DNA from: a virus
Virus record (IMG/VR): IMGVR_UViG_3300020034_000004
Coordinates: 33,490 to 97,489 of that record
Length of the DNA: 64,000 nt
Reading direction: 5' to 3' (one strand)
A program made the translations under genes and the position numbers. Under the pieces are notes generated by a model. That model was not told the origin of the DNA and did not search any database. It saw nothing but the letters and a program-made list of their open reading frames with translations. Shown here piece by piece: positions 10,007 to 18,130 of the stretch (position 1 is its first letter; every line of letters starts with the position of its first letter).

Positions 10007-10531
10007 TTATGTACCGTCGTACCAAGCAATTCCAAGAGCTAAATTGTATACCTGCTCCGAAGTCATATCATTAGCACTTTGTGTTATAGCCAAAACATCA
10101 TCTTCAACCAAAGTAGGATTGAATCTACCCCATCTTCGAATATCTTGAAAGTTACAAGCTAAACGAAGAGCGTGTCTTTTTCTTTTGAAGTCGTTACCCT
10201 CGGTTAGTGCAAATGATTTAATTGTCCTCAAATACCTTTCCCATACACCTGTACCAAGAACATAATTATTTCTAAATGCAGAAATCTTATCCCTTACCGG
10301 CATTTGACTCATCATAGCTTCACAGGCTTGTGGTACCCCAGACTCTACCTGCATCAGCCAAGTTCCAAAATCTACCACAACGGAATCAACTCCGTCAACA
10401 ATGCTTTGCTTAGCATATTTTGCTCTGGCAGTCTTGACCTTTGAAACGACGGTATAGTAGTCATAATCACTATTGTCATGGTGTAAACCATACAATCTAC
10501 TTCCATGAATTGTTTTGAACAATATTTCCAT
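10007..10531 (-). CDS. Pol-beta superfamily nucleotidyltransferase
   Basis: HGSRLYG...SDYD motif; start placed at MEILFK. Confidence 0.85.
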   Translation of the reverse strand: MEILFKTIHGSRLYGLHHDNSDYDYYTVVSKVKTARAKYAKQSIVDGVDSVVVDFGTWLMQVESGVPQACEAMMSQMPVRDKISAFRNNYVLGTGVWERYLRTIKSFALTEGNDFKRKRHALRLACNFQDIRRWGRFNPTLVEDDVLAITQSANDMTSEQVYNLALGIAWYDGT

Positions 10532-10541
10532 ACCGGCCCCC

Positions 10542-11399
10542 CTATCTCTTAGCCAACTTTCCATACTGTCCGTTAGCAGTTGCACACACACCGGTAGTTG
10601 CATAGAATGGGTTACTGGCCGGTACATTAACTAAACTTGGGTAATAATAATGCATATAATACTGCCAAACATATGCCATACGTAAATGTCCACAAGAACT
10701 AGCATGAATCTTATCAGTATTTAGGTCTTTGACTTCATCACCAATAATATTCATAGGAACATACTTAACATATGAAGGATTCGCATTCGCTACCGCCAAA
10801 ATCTTGCTGTTCAATTCAGCCCACTTAGCGTGAGGAGACTTAATCAGACTTGCCAAAAAGACAATGGTGTCTGGACTAGCCAAATGAATACGAGTAACTA
10901 ATAGCTGGATTCTATTCTGTACGTTAGGAATATCATAGTTCTGGGCCAAATCATTCGTACCGGCGTGAATCAAAACATACTTTGGCTTATAAAGAATGAC
11001 TCGATTAGCAACAACGGTACTCAATTCGTCAATTCGCCAACCAGAATGTCCTTCATGATTGTTGTCACCCATTACCTGGAAAGCAGTCTTATGACACTTA
11101 TATGGGAGCCATGGACTAATTGGACATTGACCAACCATATTTGGCTTCTGCATACCGCCCGCGTTGAGTCCCTGAACCAATGGTCCTCGGTAACCGTCAG
11201 TAGCATCTACATACTGGCCGGTAGAATTGGTATGAGGATTATAACCCCATGTGTTTGAATCGCCCAAGGGCATAATATTTGTGTATTCATCAATAAGAGT
11301 CGTCTTGAGTGTAAATGGTCGAGGAGATACCTTCGCTTCGGCTGGTGCAGTTAACACGAACGACATCAACATCAACATAATCGAGAATAGCGTCTTCAT
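10542..11399 (-). CDS. Secreted SGNH/GDSL esterase
   Basis: Signal peptide; GDSNT, GHSG, HAGTND, DKIH blocks. Confidence 0.85.
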   Translation of the reverse strand: MKTLFSIMLMLMSFVLTAPAEAKVSPRPFTLKTTLIDEYTNIMPLGDSNTWGYNPHTNSTGQYVDATDGYRGPLVQGLNAGGMQKPNMVGQCPISPWLPYKCHKTAFQVMGDNNHEGHSGWRIDELSTVVANRVILYKPKYVLIHAGTNDLAQNYDIPNVQNRIQLLVTRIHLASPDTIVFLASLIKSPHAKWAELNSKILAVANANPSYVKYVPMNIIGDEVKDLNTDKIHASSCGHLRMAYVWQYYMHYYYPSLVNVPASNPFYATTGVCATANGQYGKLAKR

Positions 11400-11596: not shown

Positions 11597-12685
11597 TCAG
11601 ATTCTACCGGCTGAGAAATCCGCTAGGACTCTTGGAGCCGCTGCATCAAATCCAACGAAGTCCATCATGATTCCTGGCATCGTTGGGTCCGCAATTGTGA
11701 ACTCAGTACCAGCAAAAGCAACTACAGCTAGTCTTGAGTCGCGACCAGAAGTCTGACGATACTTAACTAGGGACTGTGCTGGCTTCTCTGGCCCGGCCCA
11801 AGTTTCGTTATCGGTAAATACCATGAATGTATCAATGTTCTTGTTCTTCTCACGTGCGTGACGCATTGGCGCAGAACAATCAGTACCGCCTCCACTAAAG
11901 CGGCTAATTTTTTCCTTCACTGTTTCCAAAGAGTCGCGGTCAGAGACATTGACTGTCTTGACTTTCTCCACGTAAGTGCCAAAAGCATTGATTTCAACAT
12001 ATGGCTCTGTACGCAGAGTAACCATTGCCATTACTGCAGCAGCCCCGGCGTAGTCCATACCAACCAGACCAGCAGGAGCACCCCACGTCATGGACGCGGA
12101 AGTGTCAATGCTAATCATTGTGCGCTTGTTGGCAGGTTCAATTGTCTGGAAGGCGCTATAGAAACCATCTTCCAAGGCACCCAGAACTTTAGCGTTAACT
12201 GCCCATTCGCGATGACGAACTCCATAACCTCCCTGCGCGAGCGGACCTTTACCATAAATACCCAATGCGTTTGCGTAGGCAACTGGATGAACTCGACCAT
12301 TGATAATTCTCTCTTCGTTGGCCAGAGCCTGAGCCACATCGCCAGCGAACTTCAAATCATCAAACGCACCAATCTTAGCGAAACGAGTTACATTTCGTAA
12401 AAGTGCAGTTTGTCCCAATGCTCCATCGTAGAATAGAGTCTTCCAGACCTCTGCTTCTTTTAGGAACTGAGTTGGAACTGCTTCCCATGGAAGGTTCTTA
12501 TGAATCCTCAATGCATTCAGAACTTCTGACACATTCTGCGCAGACTGAACCATCTGAAATCCATGCAAAATCTCAGGAGCATCTTTAGAAATCTCTCCCT
12601 TAAGGATAAAGTCTCCCACCCTTGGGTTTATACCCTTCGGATGAGCTAGTCTAAACAAATCGGCGTGTCGCCATGTGTTACTCAT
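11597..12685 (-). CDS. rsr: Ro60/TROVE protein, C-terminal part (rest of HEAT ring plus vWA domain)
   Basis: WRHADLFRLAHPK, LPWE, ALLRN, RVHP, MIDAS DTSASM, GGGTDCSAPM, FTDNETW, MDFVGFD. Confidence 0.92.
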   Translation of the reverse strand: MSNTWRHADLFRLAHPKGINPRVGDFILKGEISKDAPEILHGFQMVQSAQNVSEVLNALRIHKNLPWEAVPTQFLKEAEVWKTLFYDGALGQTALLRNVTRFAKIGAFDDLKFAGDVAQALANEERIINGRVHPVAYANALGIYGKGPLAQGGYGVRHREWAVNAKVLGALEDGFYSAFQTIEPANKRTMISIDTSASMTWGAPAGLVGMDYAGAAAVMAMVTLRTEPYVEINAFGTYVEKVKTVNVSDRDSLETVKEKISRFSGGGTDCSAPMRHAREKNKNIDTFMVFTDNETWAGPEKPAQSLVKYRQTSGRDSRLAVVAFAGTEFTIADPTMPGIMMDFVGFDAAAPRVLADFSAGRI

Positions 12686-12717
12686 ATTTTTCCTTTCGGC
12701 TCACTATCAGTGAGCAT
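12686..12717 (-). promoter_or_regulatory. Leader hairpin and RBS, Y-RNA-mimic operator candidate (copy 2)
   Basis: ATGCTCA-ctgatag-TGAGC-CGAAAGGAAAAAT-ATG. Confidence 0.65.
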
Positions 12718-12844
12718 AATATAATAAATTCTTCACCAGAAATATGCATGTATCCCCATCGGGTAGAGCCATACTTTGATGATTTTGAACAGCAATGCGT
12801 AGATTGGGTACCTAACAATATCTGAATATTGTGAAATCCAATTG

Positions 12845-13396
12845 TTAGACAGTGCGTGACCTATACTTCACGGCTTGATAAGCCAACTGCTCAGGAGTCT
12901 TTGATTCATACCATCCTGCTACCGCTGCCCTCTTGGAACGACCCCAGCCACCAAATGCCTTGACGTAAGATGCGAACTCGAATAGATGAGTAGAAGTACG
13001 AACTACCTTATTTACCGCCGCGCGAGCGTATGCCTTGTCCTGACCTTCAAAGAAGACCAATGCAAGAGTAAAGATAGTAGGTGACTGCTTCGCTGCGCGG
13101 TTGTTGACTGATACGTCAACAACGGTATCGACAACCTCACGCTCATTGATTTTAATCATTTCCTTAACAAAGTCAACATTCTGCTTCGTTAGGTCTGATT
13201 CACCAACGTAATAGGTGCCTGAATCGGTACCCAGAATAAGAAATCGTTCCAACCTGTCCTTATCTGATACCTTGAACACAAACCCACCGGCACTGTTTAA
13301 GACTTCGTCAGTCCTGCCTGGTGTGCGCTCGCTCTGTGGTGTAGAACCCTTACGGTTACGCTGAGTAGCGGCGGTACGTGTTAATGCGTTTGACAT
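12845..13396 (-). CDS. rsr: Ro60/TROVE protein, N-terminal part
   Basis: NSAGGFVF, RLERFLILGT..GTYY, RTSTHLFEF, GWGRSKR, LAYQAVKYRSR. Confidence 0.92.
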   Translation of the reverse strand: MSNALTRTAATQRNRKGSTPQSERTPGRTDEVLNSAGGFVFKVSDKDRLERFLILGTDSGTYYVGESDLTKQNVDFVKEMIKINEREVVDTVVDVSVNNRAAKQSPTIFTLALVFFEGQDKAYARAAVNKVVRTSTHLFEFASYVKAFGGWGRSKRAAVAGWYESKTPEQLAYQAVKYRSRTV

Positions 13397-13432
13397 AATA
13401 TTTCCCTTTCGGCTCATTCGCTATATGAGCAT
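13397..13432 (-). promoter_or_regulatory. Leader hairpin and RBS, Y-RNA-mimic operator candidate (copy 1)
   Basis: ATGCTCA-tatagcgaa-TGAGC-CGAAAGGGAAATATT-ATG. Confidence 0.65.
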
Positions 13433-13593: not shown

Positions 13594-13666
13594 TGCGCCA
13601 GGTCGGGGTCGAACCGACATCAACCTGTATATAAGACAGGGACACTTACCTTTGTGCTACCGGCGC
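13594..13666 (-). tRNA. tRNA-Ile(TAT)
   Basis: CCTGT-CT TAT AT-ACAGG; acceptor GCGCCGG/CTGGCGC-A. Confidence 0.85.
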
Positions 13667-14060
13667 GCTTGAGATATGCCAATGCTTTCTCAAGACCCTC
13701 GATGTTATCACCAAGCATCCCAATTCCAACATTGCAATTCCCACAAAGACCACCACGAAACAATCCAGTCTTATGGTTATGGTCGATTACAATTGCAGGT
13801 CTAAGTTCACATGAGTAGCATAGACCACTCAACGCTTCTTGAACCTGCTCAAGAGGTATGTTGTACTTCTGGGCCTTGTGCTTACCTGTTGCCTTGTAAG
13901 CACTGACTCTATCACGTTGCTTCTGGCGATTGCTACCCTTTGAGTAGTACTCTCGCTGATAAGCATTGTGACACACTTTGCACTTGCCAGTCAACTTACC
14001 TCGCTTGGTAGCGAATTCAGATTCTGGCTTCTCTTTATTACACTCAATACAAATCTTCAT
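13620..14060 (-). CDS. Endonuclease VII-like homing endonuclease
   Basis: CIEC...CKVC; DHNHKTGLFRGGLCGNCNVGIG; 3' end runs into tRNA-Ile. Confidence 0.85.
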   Translation of the reverse strand: MKICIECNKEKPESEFATKRGKLTGKCKVCHNAYQREYYSKGSNRQKQRDRVSAYKATGKHKAQKYNIPLEQVQEALSGLCYSCELRPAIVIDHNHKTGLFRGGLCGNCNVGIGMLGDNIEGLEKALAYLKRAGSTKVSVPVLYTG

Positions 14061-14171
14061 ATTTGGATTATATCAAGGATTATATCCTAAAACCAAAACT
14101 AAAGACCCGATACCGTAGAGTGAGGTTATCACTTATTCGTATCGAGTCCTGTGCACTTTTTACAGTGCCAG

Positions 14172-14262
14172 CGGAAGCGGGGTGGTTTCGAACCCCCAAG
14201 GGCCATAAGCCTCGCTCGCTTTCAAGGCGAGTGCCGTCGTCCAAAATTCGGCTTGCGCTTCC
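14172..14262 (-). tRNA. tRNA-Ser(TGA)
   Basis: CTCGC-CT TGA AA-GCGAG; long variable arm; G73. Confidence 0.9.
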
Positions 14263-14265
14263 ATG

Positions 14266-14330
14266 ACCAGATATGTTGATTGAGAACGTGTTTATTTGTT
14301 TGAAAGATAAACGTACTCATTCGACCCGGT
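14266..14330 (-). ncRNA. Short Y RNA (Ro-binding stem only)
   Basis: 5' CCGGGUCGAAUG...UUAUC...AACAUAUCUGG 3'; contains the GNCGAAN(0-1)G Ro motif. Confidence 0.75.
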
Positions 14331-14406
14331 TGGTGGGCGTGGGGAATTTCGAAATCCCGACCTCTTCGGTGTAAACGAAGCGCTCTTCCTCTGAGACTAC
14401 ACGCCC
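14331..14406 (-). tRNA. tRNA-Val(TAC), CCA encoded
   Basis: TTCG-TT TAC AC-CGAA. Confidence 0.9.
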
Positions 14407-14437
14407 AAGATATTTAATTGTTATCGAATTGTTATTA

Positions 14438-14562
14438 TTGAGGATATGTTATAGAAATCGAGTTTTTAACGCTCTTCCATTAAGCTACAGACCGAAGTCC
14501 AGTGGGATTCGAACCCACATCTCTCTTTTGACATAAGATAATCGAATTCATTCGACCCTCAA
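14438..14562 (-). ncRNA. yrlA: YrlA-type Y RNA with full tRNA-like domain
   Basis: GAGGGUCGAAUG 5' strand; T-arm GUGGG-UUCGAAU-CCCAC; UUCG-closed acceptor; D-arm UAGCUUAAUGGAAGAGC; 3' AACAUAUCCUC. Confidence 0.88.
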
Positions 14563-14582
14563 ACTTATGGTATCTCTAACGG

Positions 14583-14654
14583 CGGCCCCGACGAGAGTTG
14601 AACTCGCTCTAACACCTTGACAGGGTGACGTGCGCACCGGTACACTACGGAACC
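14583..14654 (-). tRNA. tRNA-Asp(GTC)
   Basis: CACC-CT GTC AA-GGTG; G73. Confidence 0.9.
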
Positions 14655-14660
14655 ATTTCA

Positions 14661-14801
14661 TCATTCAGAACATTTATTACCATAATGGTTAAGCACATCC
14701 ATCTTAACAGACAATCTTCGAACTTTCAAATAGTCTCGTTGCTTTTGCCTATTATTTTGTCTATACTTTGCTTGGGACACTTTACGTTTCTCTTCATCCA
14801 T
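14661..14801 (-). pseudogene. Truncated HNH endonuclease N-terminus
   Basis: MDEEKRK...VLNHYGNKCSE* stops where the second Cys of CxxC is expected. Confidence 0.55.
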
Positions 14802-14927
14802 AGTAATATAGTATCATTATATATAATCTCCATCACAGGCCAAATTTGGTGGGACATTATAAAGGGCTGTCCCGGTTACCCTGTTATATCATACCACGTT
14901 TCGAACCGCAATACAATACCTACGTTA

Positions 14928-15049
14928 TGATGGACATGTTATGGTTTCGGAGATTGTCCCGGCTTCCCGTGGGACTATAAAGGACTCGAACCTTCTGCCG
15001 TTTATATACCATTTATATGTGAGATAACCGAAAATCCTTCGGCCCATCA
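14928..15049 (-). ncRNA. Y RNA with T-arm and degenerate tRNA-like domain
   Basis: GAUGGGCCGAAGG...UUAUC...GAAGG-UUCGAGU-CCUUU...AACAUGUCCAUC. Confidence 0.78.
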
Positions 15050-15072
15050 AGCTTGTTGGTTTTTAGACCAAG

Positions 15073-15147
15073 TGGGAAAGGTCGGATTCGAACCGACGCC
15101 CTTTCGCGTATCAGACGATTGCTCCAACCAGACTGAGCTACTCTCCC
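15073..15147 (-). tRNA. tRNA-Ile(GAT)
   Basis: Loop CT GAT AC; canonical D and T arms. Confidence 0.9.
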
Positions 15148-15182
15148 ATTGGGTTGGTTTGAGAAACCATTTCCTAAAACAG

Positions 15183-15255
15183 TGCGGATGGTGGGATTCG
15201 AACCGACGCGCTCTTGTATCCAAAACAAGCAGGCTGCCCTACACCCACAATTCCA
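15183..15255 (-). tRNA. Degenerate tRNA-Pro(TGG)
   Basis: CTTGT-TT TGG AT-ACAAG and T-loop present; acceptor stem pairs poorly. Confidence 0.5.
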
Positions 15256-15267
15256 TATTACCTCAAG

Positions 15268-15339
15268 TCGGGTACCCCAGGGTCGAACTGGGTTTCTTCT
15301 GTTCCCAAAACAGACGGATTACCGTCTTCCTCGTACCCG
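15268..15339 (-). tRNA. tRNA-Pro(TGG)
   Basis: CGGGTAC/GTACCCG-A; TCTGT-TT TGG GA-ACAGA. Confidence 0.9.
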
Positions 15340-15356
15340 AAACCGTTTATTTTTAT

Positions 15357-15790
15357 AGTGGCTAACGTCTTAACGGCTTTCACCGCTCCATCCACTGTTG
15401 TGAGCAACCTACGCTATTGATAAATTTAGAATAAATCATCTACGTTGGCGATTAATCTGCTCTGAACTCACAAGTCACAAAGTAGAATCTGATTCCAAGG
15501 ATTGGCTACCTCGTCGGCTACACGGTACCGTCAGACTATTAACTTTTCTCATCTACTAAGAATAAAGTGAGAGGAAGGGTGCTACCTTCACGCGGGGGGA
15601 GACCTTAGCATGTAAGATTACCCCACGACCATTCGTTTGCCGCTAAGCACAGATTCAACAAGTCGCTAAACTTGCCTCCTAGTCTCACCGCATTAGCCTA
15701 ACTAGGGTACTTCTGCCGAACGTGCATTACGAGCTACGTCTCCGACACTCGCATTTCTGCCACTCTCAGACGAAGGTGCTACCTTCGTCT
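15357..15790 (-). ncRNA. Candidate large (~430 nt) structured ncRNA
   Basis: No minus-strand ORF of 60 aa or more between tRNA-Trp and tRNA-Pro; two GAAGG-UAGCA-CCUUC hairpins; long-range GAGAG/CUCUC and AGUGG/CCACU helices. Confidence 0.55.
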
Positions 15791-15793
15791 TTG

Positions 15794-15864
15794 CACCCGA
15801 CGAGAGATTCGAACTCTCACGCTAGAGTTTTGGAGGCTCTGCGACTCAACCTACGCTGTCGGAT
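15794..15864 (-). tRNA. tRNA-Trp(CCA)
   Basis: AGAGC-CT CCA AA-ACTCT; G73. Confidence 0.85.
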
Positions 15865-15888
15865 ATAGGTCTTTCGACCACATTTACT

Positions 15889-15918
15889 ACTCTATCACAT
15901 CTTCATGCATCATGTCAA
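15889..15918 (-). promoter_or_regulatory. sigma70-type promoter
   Basis: TTGACA-18-TAGAGT with TGn. Confidence 0.65.
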
Positions 15919-16026
15919 GATTCATATCTTCCATAATCTCTTGGTATTCTTCTGTCCATACCCCGGAAATCAGATTCTCACCAAGAACCATTACTACGTC
16001 TATATTAGCATCTGCTGTTGGCATTG

Positions 16027-16335
16027 TCAAGACCCTTCAAGCAAGTCAATCAAATCTGACGTAGAATAATCGTTACCTAATTGTGATTCTAAATTATTTT
16101 TAATGTCTGTTTCATCCATATCACCGGGTACTTCAATTTCATATTCATACCCAGTTGAATTGGACGGAGGGGTGGAATGTTTTCCATTGTGGTTACACTC
16201 GTGGTTGAAGTATACAACGACACGAGCAAATCCGTCAACAACTTCTGTCACTTCAAATTCAGGACGACTCGTATGAGTCGTAGATTTGGCTATGTCAGCC
16301 TTTCTGACATAAGGTGAAAGCGTACCTTTCCACAT
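16027..16335 (-). CDS. Hypothetical protein
   Basis: 102 aa; ATG directly after tRNA-Gln. Confidence 0.65.
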   Translation of the reverse strand: MWKGTLSPYVRKADIAKSTTHTSRPEFEVTEVVDGFARVVVYFNHECNHNGKHSTPPSNSTGYEYEIEVPGDMDETDIKNNLESQLGNDYSTSDLIDLLEGS

Positions 16336-16336
16336 G

Positions 16337-16410
16337 CTGCTCGCCTAGGATTCGAACCTAGAAAACCTTGGGTCAGAGCCAAGTGGGTCTACCAATTCCC
16401 CCAACAAGCA
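16337..16410 (-). tRNA. tRNA-Gln(CTG)
   Basis: CTTGG-CT CTG AC-CCAAG; U1:A72, G73. Confidence 0.9.
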
Positions 16411-16538
16411 AGGAGGTCTCATAACGGTTTTCATATCGTCACCACCCAGCCAAATGGAAGGATGTGCTAATTACACCGATGAAACCAAAGCACGGTGGCC
16501 TGCTGTCTTCCGACCCTGAACCTTTTCCGTACTTTTAT

Positions 16539-16859: not shown

Positions 16860-17245
16860 CCTTGGGCCTTATGTTTAAAAGCTTTGATTGGATATTCTTC
16901 AACAGGTGTAAATACATACCGGTCAATCCAGGATTCCTCATTGACCCAATCTTGGTCAAAATATTCATCACCATTGGACTCAATATAAGAATCACCATTC
17001 TTTGAGATGTCATCCCACCAGGAATATCCAAATAATTTACCGTCACTCTTACGCTTGATGATAGTAATCATATTTAAGCCTTGGTAGAAAGCATCATTTT
17101 CTAGAAAATGACCAACATATTCATATTTTCTACCATCGCGGTCTGTGCGGTCTTCACCTTCATAAACCGCAAGATATGATGTATTTTCTTCTTCTTCATA
17201 AGGTTTAAATTCGAATACCGGCCAATCTGGGTCTAATTTACTCAC
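16856..17245 (-). CDS. Hypothetical acidic protein
   Basis: 129 aa; translationally coupled. Confidence 0.7.
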   Translation of the reverse strand: MSKLDPDWPVFEFKPYEEEENTSYLAVYEGEDRTDRDGRKYEYVGHFLENDAFYQGLNMITIIKRKSDGKLFGYSWWDDISKNGDSYIESNGDEYFDQDWVNEESWIDRYVFTPVEEYPIKAFKHKAQG

Positions 17246-17865
17246 TTGAAATCCCTTCTTTTTATTTTGGTTATAATACGTTCGCCTTTACGATTAAATA
17301 GTTGTACCTCTGAACGAGCTACAATACCTTCAGCCTCAAAGTTACCCCATTCGGACTTTAGGCCGGATTCAACGATATCAATTGCGTCATACAATGTACC
17401 GCGACCAATCTGCGGTACATAATCAATATCTAACTTATTAGCAATGTCTTCAACATTATTACGCTCAAGCCACCATTCATCAATTCTGACATCAAATAGA
17501 ACAAAAGCTTGGTCTTCTCTATAGACACCACCTTTTTGAATACCCGGACCATACCCCTCGCCATAAAGTGTTAGAGCCGGGAGTTCGGCCTCGTAGAAAT
17601 TCTCTGGCTGAAACTTTTCCTGCAAATGCTTTAGAAGTTTAGTTGGTATCAAGGCATTACCCGTGCGCCCACCAAATTCAACACCAAGGCCAAGACCAGC
17701 AAAATCAACACGAATATTAGTACCGTCTACTTTTTCAGTGAACTCCCATTGATTGAGTGCTAAATATTCTAGCTCAGGAGTAGTCCAGTTACCACGAATC
17801 ATTGGCTTATTTGGTGCGTCTAAGTCACGCTTAAAAATACTATTTATCTTATGATACTCTTCCAT
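17242..17865 (-). CDS. RNA ligase (Rnl2-like adenylation domain)
   Basis: Motif I EKVDGTN, YGEGYG, FVLFD, EGIV, TKIK. Confidence 0.9.
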   Translation of the reverse strand: MEEYHKINSIFKRDLDAPNKPMIRGNWTTPELEYLALNQWEFTEKVDGTNIRVDFAGLGLGVEFGGRTGNALIPTKLLKHLQEKFQPENFYEAELPALTLYGEGYGPGIQKGGVYREDQAFVLFDVRIDEWWLERNNVEDIANKLDIDYVPQIGRGTLYDAIDIVESGLKSEWGNFEAEGIVARSEVQLFNRKGERIITKIKRRDFK

Positions 17866-18130
17866 CTGTACCGGCTCCCTTCTCAAATCTCTTATCTCTA
17901 TATGGGTTGCCCATATACCACCAAGTGTATGTTTTACGCTTGGTAATTAACTTTAAATATCCTACATCATTGATATGTCGAGTTGGCTTCGAACAATAGC
18001 GTCCATCATAACCTTCACCGAAGTCTTCATCTCGCCCTCTGCACTTATAGAATGTTGGAAAGTGTCCATACATTCCACTTGTGCGCACCCATGGTCTTTT
18101 GGTTTTATCGTATCTCGAAAACAGTGACAT
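17849..18130 (-). CDS. Hypothetical protein
   Basis: 93 aa in a coupled run. Confidence 0.55.
   Translation of the reverse strand: MSLFSRYDKTKRPWVRTSGMYGHFPTFYKCRGRDEDFGEGYDGRYCSKPTRHINDVGYLKLITKRKTYTWWYMGNPYRDKRFEKGAGTDGRVS

What the first reader, a model, noticed from the sequence alone, without database searches (positions are those of the whole stretch)
14266..15049. Three architecturally different Y RNAs interleaved with tRNAs upstream of Ro
Seen: elements at 14266-14330, 14438-14562 and 14928-15049 share GGG(U/C)CGAA(U/G)G...UUAUC...AACAU(A/G)UC. The U-A versus C-G change in the terminal helix is compensatory. Their cargo domains differ: none, a full T-acceptor-D tRNA mimic, and a T-arm plus hairpin. 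Established: YrlA RNAs mimic tRNA, and Y RNAs can tether Ro to effectors such as PNPase. Inference: a modular adaptor set directing phage Ro to different partners, or acting as decoys for host anticodon nucleases.
Basis: partly seen in the sequence, partly recalled or inferred. Interest (0 to 1): 0.78.

Follow-up and report, generated by a model that had tools for sequence, protein, structure and literature searches.

The report
Three phage Y RNAs beside Ro60
A soil phage carries three small RNA genes of the known Y RNA kind, the partners of the ring-shaped Ro60 protein, placed between its tRNA genes just upstream of its Ro60 gene; they are real, conserved and unannotated, but they extend a known system and are not a new one.

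Summary
On the minus strand, at 14333-14263 (A), 14566-14436 (B) and 15052-14924 (C), three elements share a terminal helix, the motif GGG(U/C)CGAA(U/G)G, an inner helix, a UUAUC motif and AACAU(A/G)UC.

A covariance model seeded on hairpin-type elements, window A among its six seeds, finds all three full length. It finds nothing else in the 97.5-kb virus record. In 18 related loci every match lies on the Ro60 strand, 5' of Ro60.

On 29 elements 91% of cells pair, against 70% when shuffled. Fifteen of 17 pairs show compensatory changes.

The three architectures recur in other Ro60 phages. They are a plain hairpin, a YrlA-type T/acceptor-like/D tRNA mimic, and a T-arm with hairpins. They match the kinds described by Chen et al. 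2014. A 2025 paper shows a Thermus phage Ro60 binding two upstream Y-like RNAs.

Many elements sit flush against tRNA genes. A fills the whole tRNA-Val to tRNA-Ser spacer, which suggests release by tRNA processing.

Neither binding nor expression could be tested. The anticodon-nuclease decoy idea has no support here: none of the three has a clear anticodon arm.

This scan noted similar Y RNA sets in tRNA arrays of other phages. Verdict: new members of a known kind.

The parts
14924..15052 (-). Y RNA C (T-arm class). Layout: terminal helix UGAUGGGC/GUCCAUCA with a bulged C; GCCGAAGG motif; inner helix UUUCGG/CCGAAA; UUAUC; hairpin; T-arm GAAGG-UUCGAGU-CCUUU; hairpin GUCCC/GGGAC.
   Evidence: Model R1 gives 30.4 bits, E 5e-5, full length. 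The constrained fold is within 1.0 kcal/mol of the MFE. The T-arm covaries in 7 class members.
14436..14566 (-). Y RNA B (YrlA class). Layout: terminal helix UUGAGGGU/AUCCUCAA; GUCGAAUG motif; inner helix GAAUUCGA/UCGAUUUC; UUAUC hairpin; T-arm; acceptor-like UUCG hairpin; D-arm with GG.
   Evidence: R1 gives 40.4 bits, E 1.3e-7. Rfam YrlA RF02553 gives 28.9 bits with the T, acceptor-like and D arms aligned at high posterior probability. The constrained fold is within 0.2 kcal/mol of the MFE.
14263..14333 (-). Y RNA A (hairpin class, like YrlB/Yrn2). Layout: terminal helix ACCGGGU/AUCUGGU; GUCGAAUG motif; inner helix; 11-nt loop CUUUCAAACAA. It fills the whole spacer between tRNA-Val and tRNA-Ser.
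   Evidence: R1 gives 75.4 bits, but A is a seed member. The MFE equals the family structure, z = -2.3. Hairpin-class elements occupy the same place 1-3 nt before tRNA-Ser(UGA) in L003 and L004.
15072..15147 (-). tRNA-Ile(GAU), 21 nt 5' of C.
   Evidence: ARAGORN and Rfam, 63.6 bits.
14581..14654 (-). tRNA-Asp(GUC), about 15 nt 5' of B.
   Evidence: ARAGORN and Rfam, 47.5 bits.
14331..14406 (-). tRNA-Val(UAC) with an encoded CCA. The helix of A starts at the base after the CCA.
   Evidence: ARAGORN and Rfam, 47.3 bits; sequence read.
14173..14262 (-). Long-arm tRNA-Ser(UGA). It starts 3 nt after the last paired base of A. ARAGORN missed it.
   Evidence: Rfam tRNA-Sec model 34.4 bits, below threshold. 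Cloverleaf-like fold with anticodon loop CUUGAAA. About 81% DNA identity to the annotated tRNA-Ser(tga) of phage Beuffert.
12845..13417 (-). Ro60 N-terminal half (TROVE), the presumed protein partner.
   Evidence: Pfam TROVE 3.2e-12. It is 70% identical to residues 1-181 of Blueeyedbeauty Ro. It ends at the residue aligned with R174 of X. laevis Ro60.
11597..12685 (-). Ro60 C-terminal half (rest of TROVE plus the Ro60 vWA domain).
   Evidence: Pfam vWA_Ro60 1.5e-48 and TROVE 7e-16. It is 61% identical to residues 182-538 of Blueeyedbeauty Ro.

Best explanation
A, B and C are three Y RNA genes of a Streptomyces-phage-like virus (Stanwilliamsviridae relative). They are the RNA partners of the phage's own Ro60 protein, which is encoded 0.85-1.6 kb downstream on the same strand.

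Shown:
- Each has the family's common handle: a 6-8 bp terminal helix with a bulged C, the GNCGAAN0-1G motif in an asymmetric internal loop, a second helix, and a conserved UUAUC.
- The handle is conserved with covariation in Ro60-encoding actinophages.
- The apical parts fall into three recurring classes.

Inferred from the published Ro60/Y RNA work:
- The handle docks on the outer face of the Ro60 ring.
- The apical part (tRNA elbow mimic, T-arm module or nothing) decides what else is recruited. The best-documented partner is the host 3'-5' exonuclease PNPase. The particle would then degrade or check structured RNAs during infection.

Inferred from anatomy:
- The three RNAs are made as part of the tRNA-array transcript.
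- They are freed by the enzymes that mature the flanking tRNAs. RNase P at the next tRNA's 5' end would set the 3' end of A, and 3' processing of tRNA-Val would set its 5' end.
For: 1. Motifs and helices are in the sequence.

2. Model R1 finds B (E 1.3e-7) and C (E 5e-5) full length although neither was in the seed. A is a seed member, so its match is expected. There are no other matches in the window or in the whole 97.5-kb record.

3. All 41 matches in 19 sources lie on the Ro60 strand, 5' of the Ro60 match.

4. Covariation on 29 elements: 91.4% of cells paired against 69.5% in shuffles (0 of 500 shuffles reach it). Fifteen of 17 pairs have changes on both sides. Slid controls pair at 35-43%.

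5. Among 80 IMG/VR loci picked only by a short motif, a model match goes with a Ro60 gene in the locus: 7 of 14 against 1 of 66, Fisher p = 8e-6.

6. The handle carries the motif that Chen et al. 2014 give for YrlA and YrlB. [quoted passage not shown]

7. Thermus phage phiLo Ro60 binds two upstream CGAA-motif RNAs and forms a complex with host PNPase (PMC12135203).

8. Both Ro60 halves are open and 61-70% identical to an intact relative. The K-Y-x-x-R stretch aligned to X. laevis residues 170-174 is kept.

9. Fifteen of 52 elements lie within 6 nt of a same-strand tRNA. A Y RNA directly before tRNA-Ser(UGA) recurs in 8 phages.
Against: - No expression, end-mapping or binding data exist. No RNA run holds this DNA.
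- Rfam YrlA is below its gathering score for B (28.9 against 69 bits) and does not report A or C.
- The metazoan Y_RNA model does not match at E up to 10.
- Single-sequence fold z-scores for B and C are weak (-0.8 and -1.1).
- The covariation alignment was fitted to the model's structure, which inflates the pairing percentages somewhat.
- Ro60 here is split in two, so the partner might be impaired.
- Seven model matches in five complete phage genomes lie 7-34 kb from Ro60, so closeness to Ro60 is not absolute.
- No promoter or terminator signal above chance was found. This fits co-transcription but does not show it.
Confidence: 0.8

Rival explanations
1. The elements are structured spacers or processing and stability signals of the tRNA operon. 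They would guide or protect tRNA maturation and have no link to Ro60.
For: Many members abut tRNAs, and A fills a tRNA-tRNA spacer exactly. Members far from Ro60 also sit between tRNAs: Bxz1 96723-96835 and Gilson 96654-96743.
Against: In Bxz1 three members lie just 5' of Ro60 with no tRNA within 2.4 kb. The conserved single-stranded motif is the published Ro-contact motif. Model matches associate with Ro60 in an unbiased locus set. All phage genomes found to carry them encode Ro60.
Confidence: 0.07
2. The elements are free-standing tRNA-elbow decoys. They would soak up host tRNA-binding defence or processing factors, with Ro60 incidental.
For: B mimics the T-loop/D-loop elbow. The locus carries RNA-repair genes: an RNA ligase and RlaP. 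In relatives the first hairpin of a T+D element carries a CUGUGAA loop and was annotated as tRNA-His.
Against: A has no tRNA-like part yet keeps the full handle. No clear anticodon arm exists in A, B or C. The handle, not the cargo, is the most conserved part.
Confidence: 0.08
3. The elements are decayed tRNA genes or a selfish repeat family with no function.
For: B and C contain T-arms. B gives a tRNA hit below threshold (25.5 bits). Homing-endonuclease genes and remnants lie in the array.
Against: Compensatory changes in 15 of 17 pairs across phages whose Ro60 is only 33-61% identical. The three copies share only the handle, not flanks. Position is conserved next to tRNA-Ser(UGA).
Confidence: 0.03

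Closest known systems
Bacterial and mycobacteriophage YrlA/YrlB Y RNAs bound by Rsr/Ro60 (Chen et al. 2014, PMC4201824; Rfam RF02553)
   Same: The GNCGAAN0-1G motif lies near the 5' end. A long stem joins the 5' and 3' ends. The genes sit within 4 kb 5' of Ro60 on the same strand. Several RNAs occur per genome: one with T, acceptor-like and D arms (B), one long hairpin with a small loop (A), and one with only a T-arm (C, compare M. smegmatis YrlB).
   Different: These lie in a Streptomyces-phage-type genome, where no record or paper I found annotates them. Rfam's model scores them at only 29-34 bits. They have a bulged-C helix and an added conserved UUAUC motif. They sit inside a tRNA array, often flush with tRNA ends. 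[quoted passage not shown]
Thermus phage phiLo Ro60 with Yrl1 and Yrl2 (PMC12135203)
   Same: A phage Ro60 with more than one upstream Y-like RNA, found through the CGAA motif and a 5'-3' stem. Binding to Ro60 and a ternary complex with host PNPase were shown there.
   Different: That is a different phage lineage and host. Those RNAs are hairpin types with no tRNA-mimic class described, and no tRNA-array setting is reported. Nothing is shown experimentally here.
Metazoan Y RNAs (Rfam RF00019) and D. radiodurans Yrn1/Yrn2
   Same: The 5' and 3' ends form a helix with a bulged C next to a GxCGA-type motif that Ro60 contacts. There is a variable effector part, and several paralogues occur per genome.
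   Different: There is no match to the metazoan model at E up to 10. No oligo-U tail or La site is expected. The apical domains are tRNA-derived.

Membership tests
Bacterial/phage Y RNA (YrlA/YrlB sense of Chen et al. 2014) | GNCGAAN0-1G motif near the 5' end | tested here: met
   A and B have GUCGAAUG and C has GCCGAAGG. The motif definition comes from PMC4201824.
Bacterial/phage Y RNA (YrlA/YrlB sense of Chen et al. 2014) | Long stem formed by pairing of the 5' and 3' ends, enclosing an internal loop | tested here: met
   Folds. Covariation on 29 members: 91.4% paired, 15 of 17 pairs with double changes, 0 of 500 shuffles as high.
Bacterial/phage Y RNA (YrlA/YrlB sense of Chen et al. 2014) | Encoded within about 4 kb of a Ro60 (TROVE) gene on the same strand | tested here: met
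   The elements lie 0.85-1.6 kb 5' of the Ro60 N-half start at 13417, on the minus strand. All 41 family matches are on the Ro60 strand.
Bacterial/phage Y RNA (YrlA/YrlB sense of Chen et al. 2014) | At least one RNA per genome with a tRNA-like T, acceptor-like and D module | tested here: met
   B aligns to those three arms of RF02553 at high posterior probability.
Bacterial/phage Y RNA (YrlA/YrlB sense of Chen et al. 2014) | Physical binding to Ro60 and Ro60-dependent accumulation | not testable with these tools
   No RNA run holds this DNA. This needs immunoprecipitation or a gel-shift assay.
Rfam YrlA RF02553 | Score at or above the gathering threshold of 69 bits | tested here: not met
   B scores 28.9 bits; A and C give no hit. 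T+D elements of other Ro60 phages, including the one 5' of Bxz1 Ro60, also score only 29-34 bits. The threshold therefore excludes the phage branch as a whole.
Metazoan Y RNA RF00019 | Match to the covariance model | tested here: not met
   No hit at E up to 10 in 13600-16500.
tRNA RF00005 | Cloverleaf scoring at or above 29 bits, with an anticodon arm | tested here: not met
   The best hit is 25.5 bits, over the 5' handle plus the T-arm of B. A and C give none. ARAGORN calls none of the three.

The most novel reading that the evidence does not exclude
In actinophages, Y RNAs are built into tRNA arrays as cassettes whose ends are cut by the tRNA-processing machinery. The junction of a Y RNA with tRNA-Ser(UGA) is conserved, and A is an exact tRNA-Val/tRNA-Ser spacer.

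The three conserved classes (bare handle, full elbow mimic, T-arm module) would then give the phage Ro60 three distinct jobs. For example: a gate-only regulator, a PNPase tether, and a link to the phage's own RNA-repair enzymes (ligase, RlaP). That would make a programmable phage RNA-surveillance kit.
Probability: 0.2. Interest if true: 0.6.

Novelty: new member of a known kind. Interest (0 to 1): 0.38.

Why it matters
Ro60 and Y RNA particles are conserved from bacteria to humans, where Ro60 is a lupus and Sjogren's autoantigen. What the variable part of a Y RNA does is still open.

Large actinophages appear to carry 3-5 unannotated Y RNAs in a few recurring designs. Cultured relatives such as Blueeyedbeauty, Gilson and Bxz1 infect tractable hosts. 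They offer a compact natural test set for asking which design recruits which partner.

There is also a practical use. Some of these RNAs are currently annotated as tRNAs in GenBank phage records, so phage tRNA counts are slightly inflated. The covariance model built here finds them reliably.

Tried and rejected
- **Rfam at gathering thresholds** finds only tRNAs and the tmRNA. At permissive E-values only B gives a YrlA hit. The metazoan Y_RNA model gives none.
- **MAFFT plus RNAalifold on 10 hairpin-type elements** recovered only the terminal helix, because the 3' strands were misaligned. I replaced it with a hand-checked six-sequence seed and model-based realignment.
- **Single-sequence MFE folds of B and C** prefer a local hairpin in the 5' motif. 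Their z-scores are weak, so they were not used as evidence.
- **Promoter and terminator scan**: nothing above chance.
- **Sequencing runs**: no RNA holder listed. Only soil-metagenome DNA runs hold the stretch, and one may be its source. Read laying was not used because it could not bear on expression.
- **Literature on Ro60 residues**: I recall that K170 and R174 are the Y RNA-binding residues, but the literature search gave no paper for it. That point stays a recollection. Two reviews (PMC6047535, PMC10870794) are not held.
- **Motif-only scan of IMG/VR**: the hits were mostly chance matches (66 of 80 loci had no model hit), so I used them as negative controls.
- **Anticodon-arm mimicry in B**: the first hairpin can be drawn with a 7-nt loop containing GUC. 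The alignment is ambiguous, so I rejected it as evidence.

Full report
**What is there**

The window is part of a 97.5-kb IMG/VR virus record, estimated 74% complete. Almost all its genes lie on the minus strand. It carries a tmRNA and more than 20 tRNAs. By tRNA-level DNA similarity and by Ro60 protein identity (up to 61%), its nearest relatives are Streptomyces phages of the family Stanwilliamsviridae.

Read on the minus strand, the stretch runs in this order:
- tRNA-Ile(GAU), 15147-15072
- element C, 15052-14924
- a 45-codon ORF
- tRNA-Asp, 14654-14581
- element B, 14566-14436
- tRNA-Val, 14406-14331
- element A, 14333-14263
- a long-arm tRNA-Ser(UGA), 14262-14173, which ARAGORN missed
- an endonuclease VII-type gene
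- tRNA-Ile(UAU)
- Ro60

**Check of the observation**

GGGYCGAAKG occurs three times in 64 kb, all here and on one strand, against 0.27 expected.

The terminal helices extend beyond the shared motif. They are entirely different in sequence yet complementary. The base after GGG pairs as U-A in A and B and as C-G in C.

All three elements have the same layout:
- a terminal helix of 6-8 pairs with a bulged C;
- an asymmetric internal loop that holds CGAA(U/G)G on the 5' side and AACA on the 3' side;
- a second helix;
- a conserved UUAUC;
- a variable apical part.

Folds constrained to this layout cost 0 to 1.0 kcal/mol relative to the unconstrained minimum.

**Are they real, conserved RNAs?**

Ro60 homologues occur in 355 phage records: Mycobacterium 209, Streptomyces 115, Gordonia 11, Microbacterium 10. 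I fetched 18 related loci from IMG/VR and GenBank. A signature scan found 1-5 elements per locus, always on the Ro60 strand.

I built a covariance model (R1) from six hairpin-type elements, using a hand-checked structure of 17 pairs. Window A is one of the six seeds, so its 75.4 bits are expected.
- R1 finds window B at 40.4 bits (E 1.3e-7) and window C at 30.4 bits (E 5e-5). Both are full length, although neither was in the seed.
- All 41 matches in 19 sources are on the Ro60 strand and 5' of the Ro60 match.
- The whole virus record has only these three.

On 29 model-aligned elements:
- 91.4% of cells pair, against 69.5% in shuffles (0 of 500 shuffles as high) and 35-43% when partners are slid;
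- 15 of 17 pairs show changes on both sides;

The alignment was fitted to the model, which favours the structure. The slid and shuffled controls are far below the observed values all the same.

**Link to Ro60**

I scanned IMG/VR with a short motif and used its mostly chance hits as controls. A model match went with a Ro60 gene in the same locus in 7 of 14 loci, against 1 of 66 without a match (Fisher p = 8e-6).

Most of the seven Ro60-negative loci with a match are short pieces of 120-134-kb contigs. One of them (L082) comes from the same contig as a locus that does carry Ro60 (L056).

In five complete phage genomes, 11 of 18 matches lie within 4.5 kb 5' of Ro60 and 7 lie further away. The two distant ones I inspected also sit in tRNA arrays:
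- Gilson 96654-96743 ends 1 nt before tRNA-Gly;
- Bxz1 96723-96835 lies between tRNA-Val and tRNA-Lys.

**The partner protein**

Ro60 here is two ORFs. The first (12845-13417) covers residues 1-181 of the intact Blueeyedbeauty Ro60 at 70% identity. The second (11597-12685) covers residues 182-538 at 61% identity. A 159-nt spacer lies between them.

The first half ends at the residue aligned with R174 of X. laevis Ro60, and the K-Y-x-x-R stretch is kept. Both halves are open and conserved, so a two-piece Ro60 is plausible.

**Three architectures**

- A is a plain hairpin with an 11-nt loop.
- B aligns to the T-arm, acceptor-like hairpin and D-arm of Rfam YrlA. It has the GG of a D-loop.
- C has a hairpin, a T-arm (UUCGAGU loop) and a second hairpin. 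The T-arm covaries among seven members of that class.

The same three classes recur in Blueeyedbeauty (five elements), Gilson, Comrade, Sham, TunaTartare, Karimac, MulchMansion, Peebs, Bxz1 and metagenomic relatives.

**How it most likely works**

Chen et al. 2014 define the motif GNCGAAN0-1G as the likely Ro60 contact. They report YrlA in 254 bacteria and 22 phages.

A 2025 study shows that Thermus phage phiLo Ro60 binds two upstream CGAA-motif RNAs and assembles with host PNPase.

By analogy, the handle docks on Ro60 and the apical part recruits or excludes partners. This step is inferred, not shown.

The anatomy adds a second inference. Fifteen of 52 elements lie within 6 nt of a same-strand tRNA. 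A Y RNA directly before tRNA-Ser(UGA) recurs in eight phages.

Window A begins at the base after the CCA of tRNA-Val. Its last paired base lies 3 nt before tRNA-Ser. tRNA maturation would therefore release the Y RNAs.

**Comparison and novelty**

All sequence-testable defining features of bacterial and phage Y RNAs are met. Binding could not be tested.

Rfam's gathering score is not met. The same holds for the T+D elements of other Ro60 phages, including the one just 5' of the Ro60 gene of mycobacteriophage Bxz1, which all score 29-34 bits.

None of the GenBank records I examined annotates these RNAs, and I found no paper describing them in Streptomyces phages.

This scan has noted comparable sets of handle-sharing RNAs in tRNA arrays beside Ro60-like genes in other phages.

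The finding is therefore a well-supported new member of a known kind. The tRNA-array embedding and the recurring T-arm class are the modestly new details.

The decoy-for-anticodon-nuclease idea is not supported for these three, because none has a clear anticodon arm.

Noticed in passing
window 14173-14262 (-): A long-arm tRNA-Ser(UGA) with an unusual D region. ARAGORN missed it and it appears only as a tRNA-Sec hit below threshold (34.4 bits). It is homologous to the annotated tRNA-Ser(tga) of phage Beuffert.
   Followed up: partly
window 11597-13417 (-): Ro60 is split into two ORFs exactly between the residues aligned with R174 and N175 of X. laevis Ro60. A 159-nt spacer between them holds two hairpins and a new ribosome-binding site with a start codon. 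Rfam gives no intron hit at gathering thresholds.
   Followed up: partly
window 15564-15789 (-): A match to the manA RNA family (RF01745) below threshold: 42.1 bits against 55.2, full model length. It lies between tRNA-Trp and tRNA-Pro.
   Followed up: no
window 14667-14801 (-): A 45-codon ORF between C and tRNA-Asp. It shares the stretch NRQKQRD with the endonuclease VII-type ORF at 13620-14060 and stops near a cysteine motif. It is probably a decayed homing-endonuclease gene.
   Followed up: partly
window 14804-14923 (-): The stretch 3' of C folds into a 13-pair hairpin around a GUUCGAAA loop, plus two smaller hairpins (-29.7 kcal/mol). No family or model match.
   Followed up: no
L010 3413-3560 (Blueeyedbeauty gene 99) and L014 3632-3775 (Sham gene 97): T+D-class Y RNA elements overlap genes annotated as tRNA-His(gtg) and tRNA-Ser(cga). 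The Rfam tRNA model gives no hit at the Blueeyedbeauty site at E up to 0.05. In Blueeyedbeauty, Gilson, Sham and TunaTartare the first hairpin carries a CUGUGAA loop, which resembles a tRNA-His anticodon loop.
   Followed up: partly
MK061412.1 96654-96743; NC_004687.1 96723-96835: Y-handle elements 26-34 kb from Ro60, again inside tRNA arrays. The Gilson one ends 1 nt before tRNA-Gly(UCC). The Bxz1 one fills the tRNA-Val/tRNA-Lys spacer.
   Followed up: partly
window 10007-10627 (-) and 17242-17886 (-): An RlaP-family nucleotidyltransferase and an RNA ligase flank the Ro60 and Y RNA locus. A GDSL hydrolase-like gene lies directly 3' of Ro60.
   Followed up: no
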